Positions 35,534-35,673 of a DNA stretch of 64,000 nt are shown here, in pieces. Location of the stretch: positions 7,070,001 to 7,134,000 of the forward strand of contig CM075993.1 of assembly GCA_038087875.1 (NCBI GenBank). Reading direction: 5' to 3'. A program made the position numbers and the translations under genes. Below the pieces are notes generated by a model, which was given only the letters and a program-made list of their open reading frames with translations, was not told the DNA's origin and ran no database searches. How positions within the stretch are numbered: the first letter of the stretch is position 1; every line of letters starts with the position of its first letter. The stretch is from Malacoraja senta. Its lineage: Eukaryota.

Positions 35534-35673
35534 ACTTCTTCTTCTTTCATGTGGCGTGCACAGCCTAAAGTTGTTGGACAACTTGTTCTATTTGATCTTC
35601 CGTTTGTGCACGTCGAGTTGATTGCATTAGTCGAAACAGGGCAGACCACGTGAAGGTTGCAATCACCCACCCC
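35534..35673 (-). mobile_element. Short (~140 bp) non-autonomous retroelement (probably Vingi/Ingi-derived) with a 5' HDV-like ribozyme and (GAA)n tail
   Basis: TSD (C)TTAACCAGAACT at 35521-35533 and 35673-35685; minus-strand tail ...CACGCCACATGAAAGAAGAAGAAG. Confidence 0.8.
35620..35673 (-). ncRNA. HDV/CPEB3-like self-cleaving ribozyme (predicted)
   Basis: Minus strand reads GGGGTGG-GT-GATTGCA-ACC-TTCACGT-GGT-CTGCCCT-GTTTCGA-CTAA-TGCAATC: 7-bp P1 with G1-U wobble, 7-bp P2, 3-bp P3, J4/2 C-U-A-A. Confidence 0.82.

What the first reader, a model, noticed from the sequence alone, without database searches (positions are those of the whole stretch)
35534..35673. Second ribozyme-headed mini-element; its stems co-vary with the first
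Seen: the minus strand reads GGGGTGG GT GATTGCA ACC TTCACGT GGT CTGCCCT GTTTCGA CTAA TGCAATC, then ~85 nt and a (GAA)n tail, between 12-13 bp TSDs. Versus 3799-3850, P2 (GATTGCA/TGCAATC vs GGAAAGA/TCTTTCC) and P3 (ACC/GGT vs GCG/CGC) differ in sequence but stay fully paired, while TTCACG, CCCTGTTTC and C-N-A-A are kept. This compensatory change is strong internal evidence of a selected RNA fold. Inference: at least two families of very small (~53 nt, almost P4-less) HDV-like ribozyme SINE-like elements exist in this genome.
Basis: partly seen in the sequence, partly recalled or inferred. Interest (0 to 1): 0.82.

Follow-up and report, generated by a model that had tools for sequence, protein, structure and literature searches.

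The report
Ribozyme-headed miniature Vingi-type retrotransposon
This is one of thousands of copies of a 140-base jumping element made of just the two ends of a larger retrotransposon in the same animal genome, and its front end is predicted to fold into an unusually small self-cutting RNA that likely frees it from host transcripts.

Summary
Window 35534-35673 (minus strand) is a 140-bp insertion with a 12-bp target-site duplication and a (GAA)n tail; two other organisms carry the empty site. Its first 54 nt fit the HDV-like double pseudoknot with P4 cut to 5 nt. Against the element at 3675-3850, 8 of 17 pairs change on both sides and none break. It is not a Pol III SINE. I found its parent in the same genome: a ~3.1-kb APE+RT LINE without RNase H (Vingi-type) that begins with the same ribozyme and ends with the same ~47 nt. 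The mini-element is that LINE's two ends after internal deletion, with roughly 2,700 exact head-motif matches. Two related LINE families carry the fold with other stems and a full P4; one has a compensatory P1.1 change. Covariation lies between lineages; within a family, copies decay neutrally, and this copy is slightly damaged. Cleavage was not tested. The design is known (NARTc, RIME, R2 SIDEs, non-autonomous Vingi). What is new is the P4-less ribozyme in an animal retroelement and the very small size.

The parts
35534..35673 (-). Whole non-autonomous element (family e2), 140 bp
   Evidence: empty site in organisms F and G
35620..35673 (-). Predicted HDV-like ribozyme, 54 nt; predicted cleavage just 5' of G at 35673
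35667..35673 (-). P1 5' strand (G1 at 35673), pairs with 35638-35644
   Evidence: most copies have CCGCCCT, the parent LINE CCACCCT, this copy CTGCCCT
35658..35664 (-). P2 5' strand, pairs with 35620-35626
35645..35657 (-). P3-L3-P3 (ACC TTCACGT GGT); the third L3 base (C) is predicted to pair with G at 35637 (P1.1)
   Evidence: U-A at this pair in LINE family D
35627..35635 (-). 5-nt P4 stub (35631-35635) and J4/2 C-N-A-A; predicted catalytic C at 35630
   Evidence: C in 62 of 64 heads, the next base varies T/G/A/C
35603..35619 (-). Rest of the parent LINE's 5' UTR
35547..35581 (-). 3' end of the parent LINE, including its stop codon (35565-35567) and 3' UTR
35534..35548 (-). (GAA)n tail
35522..35533 (.). 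Target-site duplication, 3' side of the element
35674..35685 (.). Target-site duplication, 5' side of the element
3675..3850 (-). Sister family e1 (176 bp; 52-nt head at 3799-3850; 12-bp TSD at 3663-3674 and 3851-3862)
20044..20895 (+). 3' fragment of related LINE family B; no head found by the window scan
36853..39363 (+). Large coding exon of a ZNF592-family gene; the element lies 1.2 kb upstream on the opposite strand (context, not part of the element)
   Evidence: PF25412, E 4.5e-21

Best explanation
The element is a 140-bp non-autonomous retrotransposon made of the first ~75 nt and last ~47 nt of a Vingi-type LINE in the same genome, and its first 54 nt are predicted to form a P4-less HDV-like ribozyme that likely cuts the element's RNA out of read-through host transcripts exactly at G1. 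The freed RNA would then be bound at its 3' end by the LINE's APE-RT protein in trans and inserted by target-primed reverse transcription, which leaves the ~12-bp TSD and (GAA)n tail. Shown: shared ends, copy number, TSDs, 5' ends at G1, empty site, stem covariation between lineages. Inferred: cleavage, read-through transcription, which LINE protein does the work. The copy in this window is most likely an ordinary, slightly decayed insertion.
For: Copies: 2679 exact matches to the head pattern, 0 to the reversed control; a few are double counts from the variable gap. TSD of 9 nt or more ending right before G1 in 69 of 77 distinct e2 copies and 34 of 37 e1 copies, mostly 11-12 bp and starting with A. 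Among copies picked by their 3' part only, all 26 distinct e2 copies keep the head (21 start GGGG, 5 differ by one base), and 25 of 28 e1 copies reach the G run. Parent: in 5 of the 100 listed (of 526) negated-pattern matches the e2 3' end follows the end of a LINE ORF; that LINE has 503 first-look candidates. 17 of 20 printed 5' ends of it carry at least the L3-to-P2 part of the same ribozyme, and L314 and L320 carry all of it. 5 of 30 3' fragments carry the head inverted. Near-full copy L290: APE (PF14529) and RVT_1, no RNase H or DUF6451 at E<=0.1. Intact relatives are mostly ~1000-aa single ORFs with no RNase H family listed in the 120 rows shown of 337; the best is 72% identical. Junction intermediates exist (L218, L221-L224). 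Fold: four distinct heads (e2, e1, LINE B, LINE D) give 4-9 double changes per pairwise comparison and one broken pair in all (an A.C in B), including C-G to U-A at P1.1. Descriptor over 1.50 Mb held: 100 distinct hits with C at the catalytic place, 3 with T, 0 with A or G, and 0 in 3 shuffles. Differences shared by many copies in the head fall at J1/2, the J4/2 N and a U-A to U.G change. The 5' end of Vingi-2_Gav printed in the supplement of PMC5786205 has the same P3-L3-P3 as e1 and can be folded the same way by eye. Empty site in two other organisms.
Against: No cleavage or RNA-end data: all runs were contigs. Rfam gives no match for the e2 head or for the LINE A, B and C heads. There is no within-family signal: stem positions vary 14 of 755 against 4 of 162 free positions in e2, and 17 of 613 against 7 of 223 in e1. 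Only four independent resolved heads exist here, aligned by structure, so the covariation count is not a phylogeny-aware statistic. Family C's head has P1, P3 and L3 but no clean P2. No intact family-A ORF was found, and its copies are a little older (2.7-4.1% from column majority) than the minis (1.8-2.7%), so the actual driver is uncertain. No direct parent of e1 among 69 matches. The loci were chosen for holding these families. The Vingi label rests on architecture and by-eye likeness, not a tree with named references.
Confidence: 0.8

Rival explanations
1. The head is an inherited, structured 5' module that now works mainly as an internal promoter or as a protein-binding and protective cap, with little or no self-cleavage in the P4-less form.
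For: The 77-nt head of L1Tc/NARTc is both promoter and ribozyme (PMC3383444, search listing). A promoter starting at +1 would also give precise 5' ends. J1/2 is only 2 nt, and in another HDV-like ribozyme 0-1 nt spacers nearly abolished activity (PMC4908430 passages).
Against: The catalytic C, G1.U, L3 U...G and P1.1 are kept while stem sequences change freely, which fits catalysis better than a DNA promoter. P4-less HDV-like ribozymes are active in vitro (theta ribozyme preprint passages).
Confidence: 0.12
2. The structure is as described, but the minis were amplified in trans by a younger LINE family (C or D) rather than by their sequence parent, family A.
For: Families B, C and D are younger (1.0-1.6% from column majority, n = 3, 7, 7) and have long ORFs, 986 aa in L375. 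C and D also end in GAAGAAG. The e1 3' end is 75% like family C over 48 nt, E 0.17.
Against: The e2 3' end matches family A, not C or D. The ages of e2 and family A overlap.
Confidence: 0.25
3. This copy has been co-opted by the host to regulate the neighbouring ZNF592-family gene by RNA cleavage.
For: It lies 1.2 kb upstream of the gene's large coding exon. The mammalian CPEB3 ribozyme is intronic (PMC6765202 passage).
Against: It is antisense to the gene, absent in two other organisms, and carries a CpG-decay change in P1 and a J1/2 seen in 1 of 64 heads, which creates a competing hairpin (P3 probability 0.11 against 0.32-0.47).
Confidence: 0.03
4. It is a conventional SINE with an independently derived head and only a LINE-like tail.
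For: Size, tail and TSD are SINE-like.
Against: The head is the 5' end of the same LINE that supplies the tail. Rfam shows no tRNA, 5S or 7SL match there.
Confidence: 0.02

Closest known systems
Bipartite non-autonomous Vingi derivatives (Vingi-1_EE derivatives; Kojima 2018, PMC5786205)
   Same: Only the 5' and 3' ends of a single-ORF APE-RT LINE without RNase H, joined by internal deletion. The Vingi-2_Gav 5' end in the supplement shares the P3-L3-P3 core.
   Different: [quoted passage not shown] The gharial head has a longer P4 region. The original Vingi paper was not held.
NARTc/L1Tc, RIME/ingi and SIDER elements of trypanosomatids (PMC3185411, PMC4035085)
   Same: A non-autonomous partner shares the ribozyme-bearing head with its LINE, and cleavage at +1 was shown in vitro for NARTc (passages).
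   Different: Their head is 77 nt or more, and Ingi has RNase H (PMC13708176). Here the head is 54 nt, the whole element 140 nt, in an animal genome.
R2 SIDEs (Eickbush and Eickbush 2012, PMC3414825)
   Same: 5' ribozyme joined to the 3' end of the parent, moved by target-primed reverse transcription in trans (abstract).
   Different: R2 SIDEs are rDNA-specific and rare. These are dispersed, thousands of copies, with an APE-type partner.
Minimal HDV-like (drz-Mtgn, theta) ribozymes (bioRxiv 2023.06.13.544163)
   Same: HDV-like core without P4.
   Different: Reported from gut metagenomes and phage tRNA trailers (passages), not as retrotransposon heads.

Membership tests
HDV-like ribozyme | Nested double pseudoknot: P1, P2, P3 fully paired in the right order | tested here: met
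HDV-like ribozyme | P1.1 pair between L3 and J1/4 | tested here: met
   C-G in e2, e1, LINE A and B; U-A in LINE D
HDV-like ribozyme | Catalytic C first in J4/2; G1 at the cleavage site paired at the base of P1 | tested here: met
   C in 62 of 64 heads; element 5' ends coincide with G1
HDV-like ribozyme | P4 helix (absent in the minimal subgroup) | tested here: not met
   5-nt stub in e1, e2 and LINE A; 25-nt P4 region in B and D. This places it with minimal HDV-like ribozymes
HDV-like ribozyme | Match to an Rfam HDV-like model at the gathering score | tested here: not met
   e2 no match; e1 30 bits against 35
HDV-like ribozyme | Mg2+-dependent self-cleavage giving a 5'-OH, lost on C-to-U | not testable with these tools
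   needs a bench assay
Bipartite non-autonomous LINE (SIDE, NARTc type) | 5' end shared with an autonomous LINE | tested here: met
Bipartite non-autonomous LINE (SIDE, NARTc type) | 3' end and tail shared with the same LINE | tested here: met
Bipartite non-autonomous LINE (SIDE, NARTc type) | Independent amplification with TSDs, no ORF | tested here: met
Vingi clade (parent LINE) | Compact single ORF with APE and RT | tested here: met
   APE and RT in order in L290, read frame by frame because it is frameshifted; one 986-aa ORF in family C; a 1019-aa intact relative at 72%
Vingi clade (parent LINE) | No RNase H domain (separates it from Ingi) | tested here: met
   no RNase H hit; none listed in 120 rows
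Vingi clade (parent LINE) | RT phylogeny groups with named Vingi elements | tested here: inconclusive
   No tree was built with named references. RT motifs match Ingi-1_Pp and Ingi-1_BF in the PMC3708506 supplement by eye only. That these two were later renamed Vingi is recalled, not checked
RTE clade (considered) | DUF6451 after the RT (marker recalled) and a shared 3' end | tested here: not met
   No DUF6451 in family A; the two DUF6451 LINE families have other 3' ends
Pol III SINE | tRNA-, 5S- or 7SL-derived head | tested here: not met
   the head is LINE-derived

The most novel reading that the evidence does not exclude
Vingi-type LINEs carry an HDV-like ribozyme as a clade-wide 5' module. 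In this genome it shrank to an active 52-54-nt form without P4, and a promoter-less 140-nt RNA (ribozyme plus ~47 nt of 3' end) is a complete natural template for an APE-type reverse transcriptase, among the smallest ribozyme-bearing retroelements and the first P4-less HDV-like ribozymes from an animal genome.
Probability: 0.5. Interest if true: 0.62.

Novelty: new variant of a known kind. Interest (0 to 1): 0.5.

Why it matters
It ties HDV-like ribozymes to Vingi-type LINEs, which the reviewed passage does not list among ribozyme-bearing clades. It also supports the idea that ribozyme-headed LINEs are the ones that spawn two-ended non-autonomous derivatives. It gives a natural series in one genome (P4-less heads and full-P4 heads) for testing how small this ribozyme can be in a eukaryote. 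Vingi-1 is being developed for gene insertion with templates flanked by its UTRs (PMC13708176 passages), so a natural 140-nt template indicates which cis sequences suffice. Thousands of intact heads in one genome also make a testable prediction: sense-oriented intronic copies should be depleted.

Tried and rejected
Searching with the 3' parts alone returned only mini copies or truncated minis, no long element (30 loci each). An RTE-type partner was tried through PF20049: two families were found, one with a GAA tail, but neither shares the 3' end; one shares a short P2-P3 motif at its 5' end, E 0.02. My automatic segmentation of those RTE-type heads was out of register in P1, so they were left out of the pair counts, as was family C (no clean P2). 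No parent for e1 was seen in 69 matches, read by eye. Within-family covariation is absent. RNA runs gave only contigs: they show family sequence in X1, X5, X6 and X7 but no strand, start or level, so they are no evidence of expression. Rfam on L405, L406, L369, L375, L290, L304, L163 and L001 gave only two hairpin matches in a flank. Two look-ups in earlier scan findings returned nothing. Ruminski 2011 and Kojima 2011 were not held; either may already describe Vingi heads. Literature searches; none listed a paper on this element or on a Vingi ribozyme. Repbase and Dfam could not be searched, and one supplement file of PMC3708506 was not searched. No covariance model or structure prediction was run.

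Full report
Observation. It is flanked by a 12-bp direct repeat, 13 bp if the first G is counted. The first 54 nt segment into P1 (7 bp), a 2-nt J1/2, P2 (7 bp), P3 (3 bp), a 7-nt L3, a 5-nt stub in place of P4 and a C-N-A-A J4/2. A descriptor scan of both strands found only this element and the one at 3799-3850, and nothing in 100 shuffled windows. Rfam scored only the other head, as CPEB3_ribozyme, 30 bits, below its gathering score. Contigs from two other organisms (F, G) join the two flanks with a single copy of the target site and no element, so this is a lineage-specific insertion.

Families. The window lies in a 1.94-Gb genome; the repeat content looks like a cartilaginous fish, which is recalled and untested. 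The two elements have 2037 and 2217 first-look candidates; only the best 40 were scored in each search, at 97-100%. An exact pattern over the e2 head matched 2679 times against 0 for the reversed control, with a few double counts. TSDs of 9 nt or more ending right before G1 were found in 69 of 77 distinct e2 copies and 34 of 37 e1 copies. In copies picked only by their 3' part, 26 of 26 distinct e2 copies kept the head (4 of 30 loci dropped as duplicates), as did 25 of 28 e1 copies. The element's 5' end therefore coincides with the predicted cleavage site.

Parent. Plain searches with the 3' parts returned only minis, and the DUF6451 LINEs had other ends. A pattern that kept the e2 3' end but forbade the mini's upstream letters gave 526 matches. 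In 5 of the 100 listed, the end followed the last codons of a LINE ORF. That LINE (family A) has 503 first-look candidates at its 3' end; 5 of 30 fragments carry the e2 head inverted, as twin priming would leave it. Walking upstream reached its 5' end: 17 of 20 printed copies carry at least L3 to P2 of the same ribozyme, two carry all of it, followed by a short UTR and the ATG. The near-full copy L290 (~3.1 kb of LINE sequence plus a later insertion, frameshifted, first 9 nt missing) has APE and RT domains and no RNase H or DUF6451. Database relatives are mostly ~1000-aa single ORFs on 3.1-3.5-kb contigs, and named ones come from arthropods and a tunicate; the best is 72% identical (337 hits, 120 listed). 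This matches the description of Vingi as single-ORF, APE-type and without RNase H (PMC13708176 passages and section 4). The Vingi-2_Gav 5' end in the supplement of PMC5786205 has the same P3-L3-P3 as e1, and RT motifs match Ingi-1_Pp and Ingi-1_BF by eye. No tree with named references was built. Short variants with the parent's P1 and a direct 5'-3' junction (L218, L221-L224) and a different junction (L216, L217) show more than one deletion event.

Covariation. A protein search found further related LINE families. Families B and D start with the same fold but different stems and a 25-nt P4 region. Window e2 against e1: 9 pairs the same, 8 changed on both sides, 0 broken. Across e2, e1, B and D the six comparisons give 8, 8, 9, 4, 9 and 8 double changes and a single broken pair, in B; P1.1 is C-G in three and U-A in D. 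Random placement of the 16 e1/e2 changes would pair them all with probability 2e-5, but the register was set by the structure, so this is indicative only. Over 1.50 Mb of held loci the descriptor gave 100 distinct hits with C at the catalytic place, 3 with T, none with A or G, and none in 3 shuffles; those loci were chosen for these families. Against a simple reading: within each family, stems mutate about as fast as free positions, so copies decay neutrally after insertion and selection acts only on replicating masters. Their shared head differences sit at J1/2, the J4/2 N and a U-A to U.G change. Family C's head lacks a clean P2 and was left out.

This copy. It has a CpG-decay change in P1 and a J1/2 found in 1 of 64 heads, which lets J1/2-P2 pair with L3; predicted P3 probability falls to 0.11 from 0.32-0.47, without pseudoknot modelling. 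It lies antisense, 1.2 kb upstream of a ZNF592-family coding exon. It is best read as a neutral insertion.

Mechanism. Shown: two-ended structure, shared ends, TSD, tail, precise 5' end, empty site. Inferred from L1Tc/NARTc (PMC3185411 passages; PMC4035085 part 2 of 7), R2 SIDEs (PMC3414825 abstract) and a review (PMC6765202 passages): read-through transcription, self-cleavage at G1, and target-primed reverse transcription by a LINE protein in trans. The driver is open. Family A copies are 2.7-4.1% from column majority, e2 minis 1.8-2.7%, and families B-D 1.0-1.6% in small samples; no intact A ORF was seen. The parent of e1 was not found in 69 matches; its 3' end weakly resembles family C. Public RNA runs were contigs only and say nothing on ends or strand.

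Novelty. [quoted passage not shown] P4-less HDV-like ribozymes were reported from gut metagenomes and phages (bioRxiv 2023.06.13.544163 passages). Eight searches listed no paper on a Vingi ribozyme or on this element, but Ruminski 2011 and Kojima 2011 were not held and repeat databases could not be searched. Verdict: a real feature, a new variant of a known kind, interest 0.5.

Noticed in passing
G000 contigs C2327, C5921, C5863, C5101, C517, C962, C2790; L405, L406: Family-C LINE fragments recur at regular 10-18 kb spacing, so the element sits inside a tandemly repeated unit. L405 and L406 share that unit; no Rfam match at E<=0.05.
   Followed up: partly
L032:1400-1700: An e1 copy is inserted with its own TSD into the 3' end of an e2 copy.
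   Followed up: no
L211, L220, L227, L230, L237, L245, L252: Ribozyme head inverted against the 3' fragment, in the LINE and in a mini: twin-priming-like 5' inversions.
   Followed up: partly
runs X1 and X7 laid on window 35606-35673: Contigs with the 68-nt head duplicated in tandem, like the double signature of SIDER2; not seen in G000 loci.
   Followed up: no
L155, L157, L159, L163 5' ends: A DUF6451 (RTE-type, label recalled) LINE with a TAAG tail also begins with an HDV-like core sharing a short P2-P3 motif with e2; a possible G-C at P1.1 in L155.
   Followed up: partly
TSDs of e2 and e1 copies: Target preference: the TSD starts with A in 50 of 69 and 31 of 34 copies, most often after TC.
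   Followed up: partly
window 35566-35614 (minus): The mini's body folds into an 8-bp stem that joins the 5'-derived and 3'-derived parts, with an inner hairpin; it may be a protein recognition site.
   Followed up: no
window 54310-54387: Near-perfect palindrome formed from a repeat fragment.
   Followed up: no
window 15221-16842: Element with 216-nt terminal inverted repeats, 98% complementary, around a Tc1-like transposase frame (label recalled), apparently young.
   Followed up: no
window 36853-39363 and 57049-57477 (+): Exons of a ZNF592-family zinc-finger gene (the second stretch judged by eye).
   Followed up: partly
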